DNA of 59,757 bases, the filler included, from Malassezia furfur (lineage: Eukaryota), in NCBI GenBank assembly GCA_052055015.1. It is 2 parts of 2 records of this genome, joined end to end, with 100 filler letters (N's around TTAATTAATTAA, not from the genome) between each part and the next. Parts side by side here need not be neighbours in the genome. Positions count along the whole stretch, not along the records: positions 1 to 30,187 come from JBQJIT010000102.1; 1 more part is not named here. One strand, given 5' to 3'. The notes under the pieces were generated by a model, which saw only the letters and a list, made by a program, of their open reading frames with translations, ran no database searches and had not been told where the DNA came from. Position numbers and translations under genes: made by a program. Within the stretch, counting starts at the first letter, position 1. Every line of letters starts with the position of its first letter. Below, piece after piece: positions 21,535-26,966 of this stretch.

Positions 21535-22417
21535 CTAGTGCCAGTCGTCGTCGTCATCGTCGTCCACTGCCGCAAACGACAGCGTCTCGACGCTCCCGTG
21601 GCCCTTGGCGTCCTCCTCGATGAGCGTATTGATCTGCCGCAGCGAGCCCGGCTCAATCGTGCCGACCAGCTCCCACTCGTCCGAGTAGTCCTCGTCCTCG
21701 ACGTCCTCAAAGAGCGCCACCACCTTGTCCTTGAGCCGCTTGCCGTCCTTCGGCGACATGGTCACCCGCACGCGCATCCTTGCGCGCTGGATCGGGATCG
21801 TGTTCTTCGCCTGCAGCAGCTTGAGCACGTCGAGTGACTGGCTCTTGGCCGACTTGCCCGTCTTGACGCTGTAGTGCACCTCCTTCATCGCCTTCTCGAT
21901 CATCCCCACCGTGTACGGCTTCTGCGACGCCGGTTCCACGCACGACTGCGCGAGCTGCGTCGCGATTTCGCGCCACAGGTTCGTCAGCTCGTGCGAGCGC
22001 TCCTTGTCGCCGACCTGCAGCTCGCCCTTCTTGAGGATCTCGATGATGATCTCCGAGACGTTGGTGGTGCCAAACGCCTTGTTCAGGTCCTCGTTCGGCG
22101 CCACCTGGCCTTTCGACACGTTCAGGAACACGTTCTCAATCTGCACGACCTCGTCCAGGTCTTTCTCGCTGCGTCAGTGCGCACACGTACATCCCCGCGC
22201 GCCACTCGCGCACCTTGTTTTTGTAGCACGCAATCTGCGTCAGCCGCGCCGCCGTACCTCGAATCGCTTGCCACCCCGGCGGTAGCGCACGAGCGACACA
22301 TTCGTGAGCCTGGCGTCAGTTGCAGCCCACGCACTTGATATTCGTCGCCGCTGCGTCAGAGCACACACGTACGCTGGTTGATCCTGCGGTCAGTCACGCG
22401 CCCCTGACGTACACCAT
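21535..22417 (-). CDS. SDO1: Ribosome maturation factor Sdo1/SBDS
   Basis: Removing introns 22384-22412, 22351-22372, 22310-22334, 22235-22257 and 22169-22190 gives [57 protein letters not shown]. Confidence 0.97.
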
Positions 22418-22525
22418 CCTCCTCGCTGCCTAAGCCGTGGCCGTCGTGCAAATTAGGCCCGATTTGGGGAAAAAAGAATAAAAAAAGGGACGTGCGCAGG
22501 AAGACGCGACCCAGTGCCTGCCACG

Positions 22526-24998
22526 ATGGTGTATTCGGCTCCGGTTCCCGCGTACAACACCGGTGTCCAGAACAGCTTTGCGTACGAGTCGGCGCTGCAT
22601 CGGTGGCCTGCGATCCTCACGCAGGCCATCGATGCCATGTATCGCCACTGCCACACGCTCTCGCTCCAGTCGCAGCAGGCGGCCGTCGACGAGGGCAAGG
22701 CGATTATCGAGCGTATCGCCAAACTCAAGTACGACATCACACACGACTGCCCGCTCGAGCCGCTCGGCGTGACCAAGGACAATGCCGCACACCTCGCGGA
22801 CGGCTACCGTGCGCCGCCTACGGATGCCTACGATGCGTGGATCCACGAGGCGCACCCGACATGGTTCAACGCCGTGTGGTACGTCGGCCCCACTCACCCA
22901 GGCTGTACGCCGAGTGCTATCTGTACCGGTACCTGCGCCATCTGTTCGACACGTCGACACACTGGCAGTCGTACGACCCCTTCTTCCAGACCAAGTCCGA
23001 CACCTTCCTCGCCTCCGAGGCGGGCATCCACGCCTGTGCCAAGCTCATCCAGGAGCTCCTAGAGAAAAACGCAACGCACGCCGTACACGACCCGGCGACC
23101 AACGTCATCTTTGACGAGCTCGTCTCGTCGTCGCTGTGGGGCAACGCCACGGACCTTAGCCTGCTCACCAACCTGAACTATGCTGATCTGCAGAAGCTGC
23201 AGGCCACCAGCGCCGAGCACCGCAAGGAGAAGCAGCAGTTTGTGTTGGTCAACCAGCTCGCCGATGCATGGGACGCCCTGCGCAGCATGGACCACGGTCG
23301 TGTCGACATTGTGCTCGACAATGCCGGCTTTGAGCTCGTGACCGACGTCGTGCTGGCCGACTGGCTCCTGACGCTCCGCGGCACGATTCCCCGCGCGTCC
23401 AAAGAGCGCGCGGCCGATGTGCAGGGTCGCCTCGACGCGGTCCACACGCGCATCGACCAAGCTGCGCAGAAGGCGTCGCGCCCGCCGCCCAGCCTGCTTG
23501 CCGTGTCCAAGCTGCAGCCGCCGTCGGATGTAATGGCTGCGTTCGAAGCTGGGCAGCGCCACTTCGGTGAGAACTACGCGCAGGAACTCGTCGAGAAGGC
23601 ACACGTCCTTCCGCAATCGATCAAGTGGCACCTAATCGGCGGGCTGCAGAGCAACAAGGCCAAAATCCTCGCACGTACGTTGCCCGCTCACCCAGCCATC
23701 CCGAATCTGTACGCCGTCGAGTCAATCGACTCGGAAAAACTCGCGACCAGCCTCGAGAAGGCGCTCGCCAAGCCCGAAAACGAGCTCCGCCGTACCTACC
23801 CTCTGCACGTCTATCTCCAGGTGAACACCAGCAGCGAAGAGGGCAAGAGCGGCGTCGCGCCGATGACCGAGGCATGGGATGGCAACGCACCAGAGCCGCC
23901 GCTCCTCGTGCTCGCCAAGCACATCCTCCTGCGCTGCCCTCACCTGCGTCTCGCGGGTCTGATGACCATCGGTGCGCTGGCGAACAGCCAGCAGTCGCGC
24001 GATGCGCACCACAACCCCGACTTTGAGGCCCTCGTGTCGACGCGGAGCAACCTGCTGCAGGCCCTTCGCAAGGACAGCGACCTCCAAGCAGAGGTGCGCA
24101 AGACGGCGTACTGGTCGCCCGACGGTTCGGCGCACGACGTGTACACATCGCTGTTTATCAATGCGCCTGACGCGCTCGAACTGAGCATGGGTATGTCGGC
24201 GGACCTCGAAACGGCGGTGGCCTACGGCAGTGGCCATGTGCGGATCGGCAGCGACTGTTTCGGCCCGCGCTCGAGCAACCAGGACGCGGCCAAGGTGCGT
24301 GAGCAGGATATTCAGCGCGTCGCCGACGTGCCGCTCGTGCAAGAGGTCGTGTTCCACACCAAGAACATGCCGTGGTTCGTGAGCGACACGTGTGTGCCTG
24401 ATGTGTGGTACACGATCGAGCAGCTGTGCACGACGTCGATGAAGGATTCTGCGCCGGTACAGGCGATGGCCAAGCGCTGGAAGACCCACTTTGACGAGAA
24501 GCGGTTCCGGCTACAGATGCCGCACGATGCGCCGCTCGGCGCGGATGCAGGGGAGCTGTCCGACTTTTGGACGATGCCGAGTGGCTACGGCGCTATGGTG
24601 CGTGACAAGAGTGTTGCTGACCTCAGCCGGAATTGGCGCCTGCGCTGCTTACGCAGCTGGCATCCAGCGGACTGGTGATCTTCAAAGGTACGTCGGAGAT
24701 CGACTGATGCAGGCGATTTGGTACGTCGCATGCACGCTCATGTAGAACTACCGCAAGCTCACGCAGGATGCTGAATGGCCGACCGATACGCCCTTCGTCA
24801 CGGCCCTCGGGCCACTGGCTGGCCACTTCCCAATCCTCGCGCTGCGCACCTGCAAGGCCGAGGTGTGCGTCGGTCTGCAAGCCGGCCAAGCGGCCGCGCT
24901 AGATCGGCAGGACCCCAAGTGGAGAACCAATGGACACTGGGCCGGTACGTCGCTTCCGCTAAGCTGATGCAGTGATGCAATTCGCTGCACGTCCCTAA
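22526..24998 (+). CDS. DUF89/ARMT1 damage-control phosphatase with an internally inserted YggS/PLPBP (PROSC) PLP-binding barrel
   Basis: DUF89 motifs SFAY..RWP, WLYAECYLYR, YDPF, LWGNATDLSLL, VLDNAGFEL, HTKNMPWFVSD, FKGDLNYRKL, LRTCKAEV flank YggS motifs AVSK, FGENY, WHLIG.LQSNK, QVNTS, GLMTIG, LSMGMS, VRIGS. Introns 22879-22901, 23675-23695, 24598-24626, 24688-24712, 24721-24745, 24945-24972. Confidence 0.93.
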
Positions 24999-25286: not shown

Positions 25287-26966
25287 ATGGCCCCGGTTGC
25301 TAACTCTCAACAATCTTCCCAGGTCGCCTCGGGCAACGCCCCGGTGGACCCCACGGCCGCTCGTCACGAGCAGGCCGAGACGATCCGCGTCGCCTCGGAC
25401 CGGATCAACTACACGCCCGAGTTCATCACGGCGCACTACGAGTACCAAAACACGCACGTCGAGCGCAAGCCGACCGCGAACGGTACCGAGGAATTCGTCG
25501 CGACGCCGTACAAGCATGAATTCGAGTTCCGCACGGGCCGCCGCGTGCCCAAGACGGGCCTGATGCTCGTCGGCCTGGGCGGCAACAACGGCACGACCAT
25601 TACGGCGACCATCCTGGCCAACCGGCACAATGTGCAATGGCGCAACAAGGAGGGCGTGCAGACGCCCAACTACTACGGCTCGCTCGTGCGTGCGTCGACG
25701 ATGCGTCTCGGCACGGACCCCGCGACGGGCAAGGACGTGTGGGTGCCGTTCAGCAACGTGCTGCCGATGGTCCACCCCAACGACCTCGTCGTCGGCGGTT
25801 GGGACATTAGCTCGCTGCCGCTCGACAAGGCCACCGAGCGCGCCCAGGTGCTCGACTACGACCTGCAGCGCCAGCTCCAGCCGATGCTCGCCGAGATCCA
25901 GCCGAAGCCGTCGGTGTACTACCCCGACTTCATTGCCGCCAACCAGGAGGAGCGCGCCGACAACGTGCTGCCTGGCTCGGACAAGAAGGCGCACGTCGAG
26001 CAGCTGCGCAAGGACATCCGCGACTTCAAGGCGCAGAACCAGCTCGACCAGGTCGTGGTGGTGTGGACCGCCAACACGGAGCGCTACTCGTCGATCGTGC
26101 CGGGGGTGAACGACACGGCGGACAACCTGCTGCGTGCCGTGGAGCAGAGTCACGAGGAGGTCTCGCCGTCGACGATCTTTGCGATTGCGTGCATCCTCGA
26201 GAATGTGCCGTACGTCAACGGCGCGCCGCAGAACACGTTTGTGCCGGGCGCCATCGAGCTCGCCGAGCGCCACAAGGCGTTCATCGGCGGCGACGACCTC
26301 AAGACCGGACAGACCAAGGTCAAGAGCGTGCTTGCCGAGTACCTCGTCAACGCCGGCATCAAGCCGCTGTCGATCGCGAGCTACAACCACCTCGGCAACA
26401 ACGACGGCTACAACCTGAGCTCCCAGCGCCAGTTCCGCAGCAAGGAGATCAGCAAGTCGAGTGTCGTGGACGACATGTGCGAGGCGAACCACCTGCTGTA
26501 CCGCAAGGGCCAGCCCGCCAAGGCGGACGGCGAGGTGGCCGCGACCAAGGGCGAGCGCCCGGACCACTGCATCGTGATCAAGTACATCCCCGCGGTCGGC
26601 GACCAGAAAGTGGCCATGGACGACTACACGAGCGAGCTGTGCATGGGTGGACGCAACCGCCTGTACGTGACGAACTTGTGTGAGGACTCGCTGCTTGCCT
26701 CGCCGCTGCTCATCGACTTGGCCGTGCTTGCCGAGCTGATGACCCGCATCACCTACCGCGTGCCGGGCGAGGCCGACCAGGAGTGGAAGTCGATGTACTC
26801 GGTGCTCTCGCTGCTCTCCTACTCGCTCAAGGCGCCTCTCGTCAAGCCGGGCACCGACGTGGTCAACAGCCTGAACCGCCAGCGCGCGGCGGTGACCAAC
26901 TTTATGCGTGCCTGCCTGTCGCTGGCGCCCGAGAGCGACCTGCTCCTTGAGACGCGCCTGTGGTAG
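25287..26966 (+). CDS. INO1: Inositol-3-phosphate synthase
   Basis: [46 protein letters not shown]; intronless coding region. Confidence 0.99.

What the first reader, a model, noticed from the sequence alone, without database searches (positions are those of the whole stretch)
22526..24998. Complete PLP-homeostasis protein (YggS/PLPBP) inserted inside a DUF89 damage-control phosphatase
Seen: one continuous frame runs from the DUF89 N-part (...VLDNAGFELVTDVVLADWLL, to 23370) through a full YggS barrel (about 23390-24270, from ERAADVQGRL to VRIGSDCFGPR, with the Schiff-base Lys of AVSK at 23509) and a short linker into the DUF89 C-part (VQEVVFHTKNMPWFVSD...KGDLNYRKL...). No stop, separate start or intron lies at either junction. 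The insert replaces what is normally a few-residue loop between the metal-binding DN and SD motifs, so this is a domain insertion, not two neighbouring genes. Known: DUF89 proteins (YMR027W/ARMT1) are metal-dependent phosphatases that remove reactive or damaged phosphometabolites, and another DUF89 subfamily is fused to pantothenate kinase (PANK4). YggS/PLPBP is near-universal, normally stand-alone and of unresolved molecular function; its loss perturbs B6 vitamers (PNP accumulation in E. coli, B6-dependent epilepsy in humans). Inference: a Rosetta-stone link suggesting a B6 quality-control unit in which PLPBP binds or senses vitamers and the phosphatase removes surplus or damaged PLP/PNP, or PLP occupancy regulates the phosphatase. 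I know of no description of this architecture but cannot search.
Basis: partly seen in the sequence, partly recalled or inferred. Interest (0 to 1): 0.92.

Follow-up and report, generated by a model that had tools for sequence, protein, structure and literature searches.

The report
PLP-binding barrel inserted in DUF89 phosphatase
A Malassezia yeast gene encodes one protein in which a complete vitamin-B6 (PLP) homeostasis domain sits inside a loop of a damage-control phosphatase; this genus-wide, apparently undescribed arrangement offers a lead on the PLP-binding protein's unknown function, but the evidence does not show that the two parts work together.

Summary
A spliced gene at 22526-24998 (+) encodes an ARMT1/YMR027W-type DUF89 phosphatase. 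A complete PLPBP/YggS barrel of about 320 residues is inserted in frame, replacing a 2-residue loop between the Asp-Asn and Ser-Asp metal motifs. Both junctions lie in one exon, with no stop or Met before the Schiff-base Lys (23509).

Two corrections. The "continuous frame" holds a probable 21-nt in-frame intron (23675-23695). The C-part needs four more tiny introns and an 8-nt microexon.

The fusion occurs in eight named Malassezia species plus this window, and arose once from the lineage's own PLPBP. No stand-alone Malassezia PLPBP or DUF89 was listed. In this species all seven DUF89 catalytic residues and all ten PLP-site positions checked are kept.

The proposed B6 quality-control link is not supported by two new findings:
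- The M. sympodialis group has lost the DUF89 nucleophile and other catalytic residues while keeping PLPBP intact.
- In sister lineages, PLPBP gene models are embedded in unrelated hosts (MCM-binding protein, an ADF-H protein).

Most likely there are two autonomous modules, with PLPBP dependent on its host gene for expression. The architecture sits unremarked in databases and I found it in no paper. Interest is moderate.

The parts
22526..24998 (+). Whole coding region of the DUF89-PLPBP-DUF89 gene. It gives 780 aa if 23675-23695 is read through and about 773 aa if that stretch is spliced.
   Evidence: Gene model built from GT..AG introns seen. The N- and C-terminal parts align with full-length homologues.
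22526..22878 (+). Exon 1: DUF89 N-terminal helices.
   Evidence: PF01937 profile 4-50. Nearly identical to the N-terminus of M. brasiliensis P0002.
22879..22901 (+). Intron 1, 23 nt (GTACGT...CTCAC...CAG).
   Evidence: It is needed to join NAVW to LYAECYLYR, the sequence seen in all homologues.
22902..24597 (+). Large exon holding both junctions: the DUF89 N-core, the whole PLPBP insert and the start of the DUF89 C-core.
23143..23154 (+). Codons of the Asn and Asp of WGNATD, equivalent to S. pombe Duf8901 Asn192 and Asp195 (lid, general base).
   Evidence: Mapped through the 7t7k alignment. Residue roles come from passages of PMC9062747.
23317..23322 (+). Asp-Asn of VLDNAGFE, equivalent to the nucleophile and metal ligand Asp248 and Asn249.
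23371..23400 (+). N-linker LRGTIPRASK. Its length is fixed, and the LRG motif is kept in 17 of 20 Malassezia sequences aligned.
23401..24288 (+). Complete PLPBP/YggS fold-type-III TIM barrel, from the N-terminal helix to FGPR.
   Evidence: TIGR00044 9e-48. Yeast YBL036C (1ct5) 2.8e-38. The fold of orthologue P0006 matches 1ct5/1b54 at TM 0.88-0.89.
23509..23511 (+). Schiff-base Lys codon (AVSK).
   Evidence: Aligned to the VVSKL Lys of YBL036C. K in 20 of 20 fusions and 52 of 52 stand-alone sequences with a residue there.
23675..23695 (+). Probable in-frame 21-nt intron inside the PLPBP part. If retained, it adds 7 residues to a loop.
   Evidence: Splice-like motifs. The 7 residues are absent in 17 of 20 fusion sequences and unconserved in P0001 and P0003. 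No RNA evidence.
24289..24330 (+). C-linker (AAKVREQDIQRVADV), a helix in the model of the orthologue. Its length is fixed across species.
   Evidence: Helix 573-588 in the P0006 model.
24385..24387 (+). Asp of WFVSD, equivalent to metal ligand Asp286.
24598..24626 (+). Intron, 29 nt.
24627..24687 (+). Exon (PELAPALLTQLASSGLVIFK).
   Evidence: aligned with homologues.
24688..24712 (+). Intron, 25 nt.
24713..24720 (+). 8-nt microexon giving (G)DL. Its Asp (24715-24717) is the equivalent of Asp363.
24721..24745 (+). Intron, 25 nt.
24746..24944 (+). Exon with NYRKL...LRTCK. The Lys at 24854-24856 is the equivalent of Lys401.
   Evidence: PF01937 profile 272-310.
24945..24972 (+). Intron, 28 nt.
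24973..24998 (+). Last exon and stop codon.

Best explanation
The gene makes a single polypeptide of about 773-780 residues. An ARMT1/YMR027W-type DUF89 metal-dependent phosphatase carries a complete PLPBP (YggS/YBL036C) barrel. The barrel sits in the helix-to-strand loop between the strand ending in the Asp-Asn nucleophile/metal motif and the strand leading to the Ser-Asp metal ligand.

Shown:
- The insertion happened once, in the Malassezia ancestor, and used the lineage's own PLPBP gene.
- The insert has no start of its own.
- No stand-alone PLPBP or DUF89 appeared among listed Malassezia proteins.
- In this species both modules keep every catalytic or binding residue checked.

Inferred:
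- The fusion supplies the cell's PLPBP function.
- The barrel binds PLP as a Schiff base at the Lys of AVSK and does whatever PLPBP does elsewhere.
- The DUF89 core hydrolyses phospho-metabolites through an aspartyl-phosphate intermediate with a divalent metal.
- The two modules act autonomously. The fusion couples only their expression and stoichiometry. PLPBP is locked into its host gene (entrenchment) rather than forming a catalytic B6 unit.

My odds are about 0.95 that the architecture is real and translated, and about 0.6 that no obligatory catalytic coupling exists.
For: Architecture:
- Family matches and the split DUF89 profile.
- About 320 aa replace 2 residues of S. pombe SPAC806.04c. 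The same is seen against six stand-alone fungal DUF89s.

Conservation:
- 23 of the 120 listed homologues carry both PF01937 and PF01168. The 6 named ones among them are all Malassezia.
- M. sympodialis and M. pachydermatis were added through cluster members.
- Linker lengths are invariant.

Single vertical origin: in a 44-row tree the 14 fusion inserts form one clade (100/98), sister to the other Ustilaginomycotina PLPBPs (100/98), with no long branch.

Sole copy:
- The 6 Malassezia-like hits among the 120 listed for the insert all carry PF01937.
- No named Malassezia protein with PF01937 alone appears among the 120 listed.

Intact sites here: Asn192, Asp195, Asp248, Asn249, Asp286, Asp363 and Lys401 equivalents are all present (roles from PMC9062747 passages). 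All ten PLPBP positions checked (Lys, GEN, SNK, GMS, R-G) are kept in 20 of 20 fusions.

Fold: the AlphaFold2 model of the M. vespertilionis orthologue P0006 has pLDDT 94.0 and pTM 0.92. Foldseek gives TM 0.92 to S. pombe DUF89 across the insert and 0.88-0.89 to YBL036C.

Autonomy:
- In 5 of the 20 fusions in alignment A2, and in the curated M. sympodialis protein P0414, the nucleophile Asp is Gly. Part of the WGNATD lid segment is deleted and WFVSD has become WFVN-N/E. The PLPBP residues stay invariant.
- In that clade DUF89 diverges faster relative to PLPBP: identity ratio 0.70-0.76 in 3 pairs, against 0.78-1.06 in 15 pairs with intact sites.
- PLPBP sits in unrelated hosts in sister lineages.
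- Only 8 of the columns conserved at 90% or more in stand-alone DUF89s changed in the 7 full-length intact fusions, against 90 kept. Two of the 8 are the junction itself and one falls in the misaligned stretch. So there is no sign that the active site was remodelled.
Against: - No transcript or peptide evidence for this locus was available. The only indirect support is that the M. sympodialis model P0414 appears to come from an annotation whose authors state that all genes have RNA-seq support (passages of PMC5389616). That P0414 belongs to that annotation is my inference, and the one supplement held named neither yeast homologue.
- The short, length-invariant linkers, the conserved LRG motif and the pTM of 0.92 suggest a fixed domain packing, which would suit allosteric coupling.
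- The review PMC9605639 (section 2.1) reports that the C-terminal helix anchoring the PLP phosphate moves with PLP occupancy. Here that end of the barrel is tied through one helix to the strand carrying a metal ligand.
- Both families are tied to metabolite homeostasis.
- 'Sole copy' rests on lists cut at 120 hits and on annotated proteomes, not on whole-genome searches, because no genome was held.
- I could not read model coordinates, so the distance between the two sites is unknown.
- One search's alignment misplaced the segment just after the insert, so its counts are rough.
Confidence: 0.6

Rival explanations
1. B6 control unit. Either the DUF89 module dephosphorylates surplus or damaged B6 vitamers (PLP, PNP) handed over by the barrel, or PLP occupancy of the barrel gates the phosphatase allosterically.
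For: - Both modules are intact in this species.
- Linkers are fixed and short, with a conserved LRG motif.
- The two-domain model is confident, with pTM 0.92.
- PLP-dependent movement of the C-terminal helix of PLPBP is reported in PMC9605639, section 2.1.
- There is a precedent for a DUF89 fused to an enzyme of the pathway it polices: PANK4 (passage of PMC8669784).
Against: - The M. sympodialis group keeps the fusion with a DUF89 that lacks the nucleophile and other catalytic residues. In S. pombe, Ala or Asn at the nucleophile abolishes activity (PMC9062747 passages).
- PLPBP is embedded in unrelated host proteins in sister lineages.
- Conserved DUF89 columns show no remodelling in intact fusions.
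- The insertion point is at the N-terminal end of the strand whose C-terminal end carries the metal ligand, so it faces away from the active site (topological inference).
- No paper I searched links DUF89 to B6. The terms DUF89 and pyridoxal occur together in 7 papers, none about such a link judged by titles and abstract openings, plus passages of one.
Confidence: 0.2
2. Non-catalytic scaffold or sensor. The DUF89 shell serves mainly as a protein-binding or regulatory module, with the barrel as ligand sensor. Catalysis is secondary where it survives.
For: - S. pombe Duf89 phenotypes depend on the protein and not on catalysis, since D252A behaves like wild type (abstract of PMC10187668).
- The catalytically dead DUF89 of the M. 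sympodialis group is still conserved at 55-62% identity within the clade. It still models as the same fold, with pLDDT 94.5.
- PLP-independent functions and RNA binding are reported for PLPBP (abstract of PMC13102913; listing of PMC11602438).
Against: - All seven catalytic residues are kept in this species and in most of the genus. For example, the nucleophile Asp is kept in 15 of 20 fusions, which argues for selection on catalysis there.
- The confident fold of P0414 may merely reflect an alignment dominated by intact homologues.
- No partner is known.
Confidence: 0.12
3. Artefact or nested gene: a mis-assembly, a merged gene model, or a PLPBP gene lying in an intron and expressed on its own.
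For: No RNA reads could be examined. Introns exist in the gene, and one probable intron lies inside the insert.
Against: - The same in-frame arrangement, with identical linker lengths, is seen in eight named species and many independent contigs. One cluster alone has 621 members.
- There is no stop and no Met before the essential Lys in 7 of 7 sequences inspected.
- The gene's other introns are 21-29 nt, against about 960 nt for the insert.
- Mean intron size in the curated M. sympodialis annotation is 30 bp (PMC5389616 passage).
Confidence: 0.04

Closest known systems
Fungal and animal subfamily of DUF89 damage-control phosphatases: S. cerevisiae YMR027W, S. pombe Duf89 and Duf8901, human ARMT1
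   Same: - Same Pfam family.
- 47-55% identity to stand-alone basidiomycete orthologues over the DUF89 parts.
- All seven catalytic residues defined for Duf8901 are present.
- Same fold in the orthologue's model, TM 0.92.
   Different: - A 320-residue foreign domain replaces a 2-residue loop inside the core.
- In one Malassezia subclade the catalytic residues are lost.
- Substrate and metal preference are untested.
PLPBP / PLPHP family: E. coli YggS, yeast YBL036C, human PLPBP, cyanobacterial PipY
   Same: - TIGR00044 match above its cut-off.
- The Schiff-base Lys and the other nine positions checked are conserved.
- Same barrel fold.
- Placed as the vertical orthologue of Ustilaginomycotina PLPBPs.
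   Different: The family is described as made of single-domain proteins (PMC9605639). Here the barrel has no free termini and no start codon of its own, and it is translated inside another enzyme.
PANK4-type fusion (DUF89 joined to a pantothenate kinase domain)
   Same: A DUF89 phosphatase joined in one chain to a protein of cofactor metabolism (passage of PMC8669784).
   Different: - PANK4 is, as I recall, an end-to-end fusion of another DUF89 subfamily.
- Its DUF89 acts on damaged products of the partner's pathway.
- Here the partner is inserted into the DUF89 core, and no shared substrate is shown.
PLPBP embedded in the MCM-binding protein in Ustilaginales and Violaceomyces gene models
   Same: The same PLPBP orthologue group lies inside another protein's Pfam domain. 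In P0065, MCM_bind profile 1-121 comes before the barrel and profile 160-576 after it.
   Different: - The host is different and functionally unrelated.
- The linkers are long and of low complexity, not short and conserved.
- I saw only protein models, not DNA.

Membership tests
DUF89 / ARMT1-like (PF01937), YMR027W-type | Profile match above Pfam's gathering score | tested here: met
   138.7 bits against a cut-off of 25 on the large exon, in two stretches around the insert. The N- and C-terminal exons match profile 4-50 and 272-310.
DUF89 / ARMT1-like (PF01937), YMR027W-type | Catalytic set defined in S. pombe Duf8901: Asn192, Asp195, Asp248 (nucleophile), Asn249, Asp286, Asp363, Lys401 | tested here: met
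   All seven equivalents are present in the window's protein. The residue list comes from passages of PMC9062747. The feature is not met in the M. sympodialis, M. equina and M. nana orthologues.
DUF89 / ARMT1-like (PF01937), YMR027W-type | DUF89 fold | tested here: met
   The model of orthologue P0006 gives TM 0.92 (target-normalised) to 7u1x and 0.82 to 5by0 and 3pt1. The window's own spliced protein was not folded.
DUF89 / ARMT1-like (PF01937), YMR027W-type | Metal-dependent phosphatase activity | not testable with these tools
   Needs purified protein.
PLPBP / YggS (TIGR00044, PF01168) | Profile match above the curated cut-off | tested here: met
   TIGR00044 at 162.9 bits against 106.25. 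PF01168 at 39.6 bits against 24.1.
PLPBP / YggS (TIGR00044, PF01168) | Schiff-base Lys and conserved PLP-site motifs | tested here: met
   The Lys at 23509 aligns with the Lys of YBL036C. The Lys and the GEN, SNK, GMS and R-G positions are kept in 20 of 20 fusions. Which of these contact PLP is recalled, apart from the Lys.
PLPBP / YggS (TIGR00044, PF01168) | Fold-type-III TIM barrel | tested here: met
   TM 0.88-0.89 to 1ct5 and 1b54, and 0.82-0.84 to E. coli YggS entries, on the orthologue's model.
PLPBP / YggS (TIGR00044, PF01168) | Single-domain, stand-alone protein, as the family is described in PMC9605639 | tested here: not met
   The barrel is inserted in DUF89, with no start or stop of its own.
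PLPBP / YggS (TIGR00044, PF01168) | PLP binding; role in B6 vitamer homeostasis | not testable with these tools
   Needs spectroscopy of purified protein and complementation or vitamer profiling.

The most novel reading that the evidence does not exclude
The inserted barrel is a built-in PLP sensor. PLP-dependent movement of its C-terminal, phosphate-anchoring end would be passed through the short linker helix to the strand carrying a metal ligand. Free PLP would then switch a phosphatase that trims B6 or other reactive phosphate esters. In the M. sympodialis group the same chassis would survive as a non-catalytic, PLP-responsive scaffold. If true, this would give PLPBP its first defined molecular output.
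Probability: 0.15. Interest if true: 0.85.

Novelty: new variant of a known kind. Interest (0 to 1): 0.55.

Why it matters
PLPBP is near-universal, and its loss causes B6-dependent epilepsy in people, yet its molecular function is unresolved. Reviews also describe it as always single-domain (PMC9605639). Three points follow.

1. **A testable natural experiment.** Here PLPBP works only as an internal domain of another enzyme. Malassezia can be manipulated genetically (recalled). The question is whether PLP occupancy or the Lys affects the host enzyme, and whether the barrel still does its job when tethered at both ends.

2. **An internal control within the genus.** Some species have an intact phosphatase host and others a decayed one. 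This speaks against a catalytic partnership. It also illustrates how a domain insertion can lock a dispensable host gene in place.

3. **A caution for Rosetta-stone reasoning.** In this subphylum PLPBP appears in several unrelated hosts, so reading function from a single fusion is risky.

Tried and rejected
- **Own genome.** No whole genome is held for this window, so I could not search it for stand-alone copies.
- **RNA evidence.** I did not try another route to reads.
- **Complex prediction.** I submitted the stand-alone DUF89 (P0118) and PLPBP (P0181) of one agaricomycete. The result was 'no answer' (scores 0.01 and 0.09 against a mark of 0.34). This is neither support for nor evidence against binding.
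- **Earlier notes of this scan.** Nothing was found by place, words or sequence.
- **Huang et al. 2016.** The founding DUF89 paper (PMC7001580) is not held. What I say about it comes from passages in PMC8669784 and PMC9062747. Whether PLP was in its 96-substrate panel I could not check.
- **M. sympodialis proteogenomics supplements.** One file is held as text, and it contains none of YBL036C, YMR027W or the accession. Peptide tables I could not see may hold junction peptides.
- **Residue counts on the large alignment A2.** MAFFT placed the post-insert DUF89 segment of stand-alone proteins onto PLPBP columns. The hmmalign repeat still misplaced that segment. I use those counts only as rough figures and rely on the smaller alignments A1, A5 and A6 for catalytic residues.
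- **Other intron candidates.** The splice-like 21-nt stretch at 24295-24315 and the candidates at 24191-24230, 24390-24423 and 24865-24902 were rejected. They encode residues conserved in other species.
- **Horizontal origin of the insert.** Rejected on the tree.
Full report
**Observation**

The window is GC-rich (about 0.60-0.65 here). One frame is open from 22492 to 24678. Reading the DNA gives a spliced gene, 22526-24998 on the + strand, with GT..AG introns of 23, 29, 25, 25 and 28 nt and an 8-nt microexon.

The large exon (22902-24597) holds both junctions. Its translation matches three families:
- PF01937 (ARMT1-like/DUF89) at 3.1e-40, in two stretches.
- PF01168 between those stretches.
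- The YggS equivalog TIGR00044, at 162.9 bits against a cut-off of 106.25.

The first exon matches the start of the DUF89 profile and a later exon matches its end.

Against solved S. pombe SPAC806.04c, residues 1-157 of the exon align with chain 111-267 and residues 478-516 with chain 270-308. So about 320 residues stand where that enzyme has two. An alignment with six stand-alone basidiomycete DUF89s shows the same clean gap, between ADWLL(T/S) and (T)PxVxxVVFHxK.

Two details need correcting:
1. A 21-nt stretch inside the barrel (23675-23695) looks just like the gene's other introns (GTACGT, CTCAC, CAG). Its seven residues are missing from 17 of 20 fusion sequences. In the two ORF-style calls that keep it they are unconserved. 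It is probably an in-frame intron.
2. The C-terminal DUF89 motifs exist only after splicing.

**Is it real?**

No reads could be examined and no genome is held. The case therefore rests on conservation.
- Of the 120 best homologues listed (of 2155 with E <= 1e-5), 23 carry both Pfam families. The six with names are M. brasiliensis (90% identity), M. psittaci, M. vespertilionis, M. cuniculi, M. equina and M. nana.
- Cluster look-ups add M. sympodialis (758 aa) and M. pachydermatis (778 aa). One unnamed cluster has 621 member sequences.
- Both linkers have the same length in all sequences aligned, and LRG follows the junction in 17 of 20.
- No Met lies between the junction and the essential Lys in 7 of 7 sequences inspected.
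- The gene's introns are 21-29 nt. The curated M. sympodialis annotation reports a mean intron size of 30 bp and RNA-seq support for all genes (passages of PMC5389616). That P0414 is from that annotation is my inference.

A mis-assembly or a nested gene is very unlikely.

**How wide is it, and where did it come from?**

- A scan of 1.84 billion representative proteins listed 150 hits. Six of them span a junction by their best stretch, and all six are 54% or more identical to the query. Scores then drop to single-domain levels.
- The ESM Atlas shows two clusters with both families, of 51 and 169 members, labelled Basidiomycota.
- In a 44-row tree of PLPBP domains, the 14 fusion inserts form one clade (100/98), sister to the other Ustilaginomycotina PLPBPs (100/98). 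Their stem is no longer than the sister's. Group labels for unnamed rows were assigned by me from architecture and similarity.

This points to one insertion of the lineage's own gene, and no acceleration afterwards.

A search with the insert alone listed 120 proteins of 175-559 aa. The six Malassezia-like ones all carry PF01937, so they are pieces of the fusion. The other 114 are PF01168-only proteins, none named Malassezia. No named Malassezia protein with PF01937 alone is among the 120. Subject to those list limits, the fusion is the only PLPBP and the only DUF89 of this type in the genus.

**State of the two modules**

The S. pombe work defines Asp248 as nucleophile and metal ligand. Asn249, Asp286, Lys401, Asn192, Asp195 and Asp363 complete the site, and Ala or Asn at the nucleophile abolishes activity (passages of PMC9062747). 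All seven equivalents are present in the window's protein. The Asp363 equivalent is encoded by the microexon.

The PLPBP Lys and nine other conserved positions are kept in 20 of 20 fusions.

AlphaFold2 on the full-length M. vespertilionis orthologue, with a 110-sequence alignment, gives pLDDT 94.0 and pTM 0.92. Foldseek matches S. pombe DUF89 across the insert (TM 0.92) and YBL036C (TM 0.88-0.89). I did not fold the window's own spliced protein.

**New evidence bearing on function**

1. *Catalytic decay in one subclade.* In P0019, P0022, P0024, P0025 (M. equina) and P0026 (M. nana), which are 5 of the 20 fusions in A2, and in the M. sympodialis protein P0414:
   - VLDNAGFE has become VLG(N/H)xG.
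   - The WGNATD lid segment is degenerate or deleted (about 26 residues in P0414).
   - WFVSD has become WFVN followed by N or E.
   - In M. nana the Lys401 equivalent is Ala.

   Some of these sequences are unspliced ORF calls, but the Asp-to-Gly change lies in unambiguous alignment. PLPBP residues stay invariant.

   Within that clade the DUF89 N-part is 55-62% identical where the barrel is 79-84% (ratio 0.70-0.76, 3 pairs). Among six intact sequences the ratio is 0.78-1.06 (15 pairs). The M. sympodialis protein still models confidently (pLDDT 94.5, pTM 0.91), though its alignment is dominated by intact homologues.

   So the host enzyme has become a pseudo-phosphatase in part of the genus while the fusion persists.

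2. *Other hosts in sister lineages.* In ten named Ustilaginales and Violaceomyces models, PF01168 occurs with PF09739. In P0065, MCM_bind profile 1-121 lies before the barrel and profile 160-576 after it. Microstromatales models have an ADF-H domain in front and PLPBP at the end. One unnamed protein joins MTHFR to PLPBP. I saw only proteins, not DNA, so some may be merged models.

[quoted passage not shown] Two of the eight are the junction itself, and one (position 313) falls in the stretch that the alignment misplaced. The alignment near the junction is imperfect.

4. *Position of the insertion point.* The loop joins a helix to the next strand of a beta-alpha-beta unit. By general topology it lies at the opposite edge of the sheet from the catalytic residues. 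This is inference. I could not read coordinates.

**What it most likely is**

It is a genus-specific domain insertion that put the indispensable PLPBP under the control of the DUF89 gene. In this species both modules should work: PLP binding at the Lys, and aspartyl-phosphate phosphatase chemistry in the core.

The balance of evidence favours autonomy, with PLPBP entrenched in its host. I give this 0.6.

The fixed short linkers, the confident two-domain model and the reported PLP-dependent movement of the barrel's C-terminal helix (PMC9605639, section 2.1) would suit allostery.

A non-catalytic scaffold reading gets 0.12. It draws on S. pombe Duf89, whose phenotypes do not need catalysis (abstract of PMC10187668).

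An artefact gets 0.04.

**Literature**

No paper holds both DUF89 and YggS. I also searched:
- DUF89 with pyridoxal (7 papers).
- Malassezia, PLPBP, ARMT1 and related terms (65 papers, 20 listed, none with Malassezia).
- COG0325 with fusion (20 papers, 15 listed).
- Malassezia with DUF89 (1 unrelated paper).
- PLPBP terms with domain insertion, fusion protein or Ustilago (18 papers, 15 listed).

None of these gave a description. The passages I checked in two of the papers concern laboratory fusions or other proteins. A 2022 review calls all PLPBPs single-domain.

The proteins are in public databases as hypothetical proteins or 'pyridoxal phosphate homeostasis protein'. The architecture is therefore deposited but, as far as these searches reach, unremarked.

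**Verdict**

The structural interpretation is supported and the functional inference is weakened. This is a new variant of known kinds, of moderate interest.

Noticed in passing
Homologues P0414 (M. sympodialis), P0025 (M. equina), P0026 (M. nana), and unnamed P0019, P0022, P0024: The DUF89 half of the fusion has lost its nucleophile Asp (now Gly), part of the WGNATD lid and the second metal Asp. The PLPBP half is untouched. The result is a pseudo-phosphatase host retained around an intact passenger domain.
   Followed up: yes
P0065 and nine other named Ustilaginales or Violaceomyces proteins; P0045, P0031, P0049, P0071; P0229: PLPBP gene models in sister lineages are also not stand-alone. The barrel lies inside the MCM-binding protein domain (profile 1-121 before it, 160-576 after), behind an ADF-H protein, or behind MTHFR. 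Only protein models were seen, so some may be merged or nested genes.
   Followed up: partly
window 24713-24720: An 8-nt microexon flanked by two 25-nt introns encodes the Asp-Leu of KGDLNYRK. This includes the equivalent of catalytic Asp363.
   Followed up: partly
window 22879-22901, 23675-23695, 24598-24626, 24688-24712, 24721-24745, 24945-24972: The introns are extremely short (21-29 nt), mostly starting GTACGT. This is in line with the 30-bp mean reported for M. sympodialis. The 21-nt one is in frame and free of stops, so retaining it would only add a 7-residue loop.
   Followed up: partly
window 21535-22146 (-) and 25287-26966 (+): The neighbours are an SBDS/Sdo1 ribosome-maturation protein, transcribed divergently, and myo-inositol-1-phosphate synthase downstream. 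Neither has an evident link to B6 metabolism.
   Followed up: partly
P0033, P0043, P0094 (Ustilaginomycotina DUF89s, alignment A1 columns 700-940): Stand-alone DUF89s of Ustilaginales, Violaceomyces and Tilletiaria carry a separate low-complexity insert of about 140-240 residues in a later loop. Malassezia and other fungi lack it.
   Followed up: no
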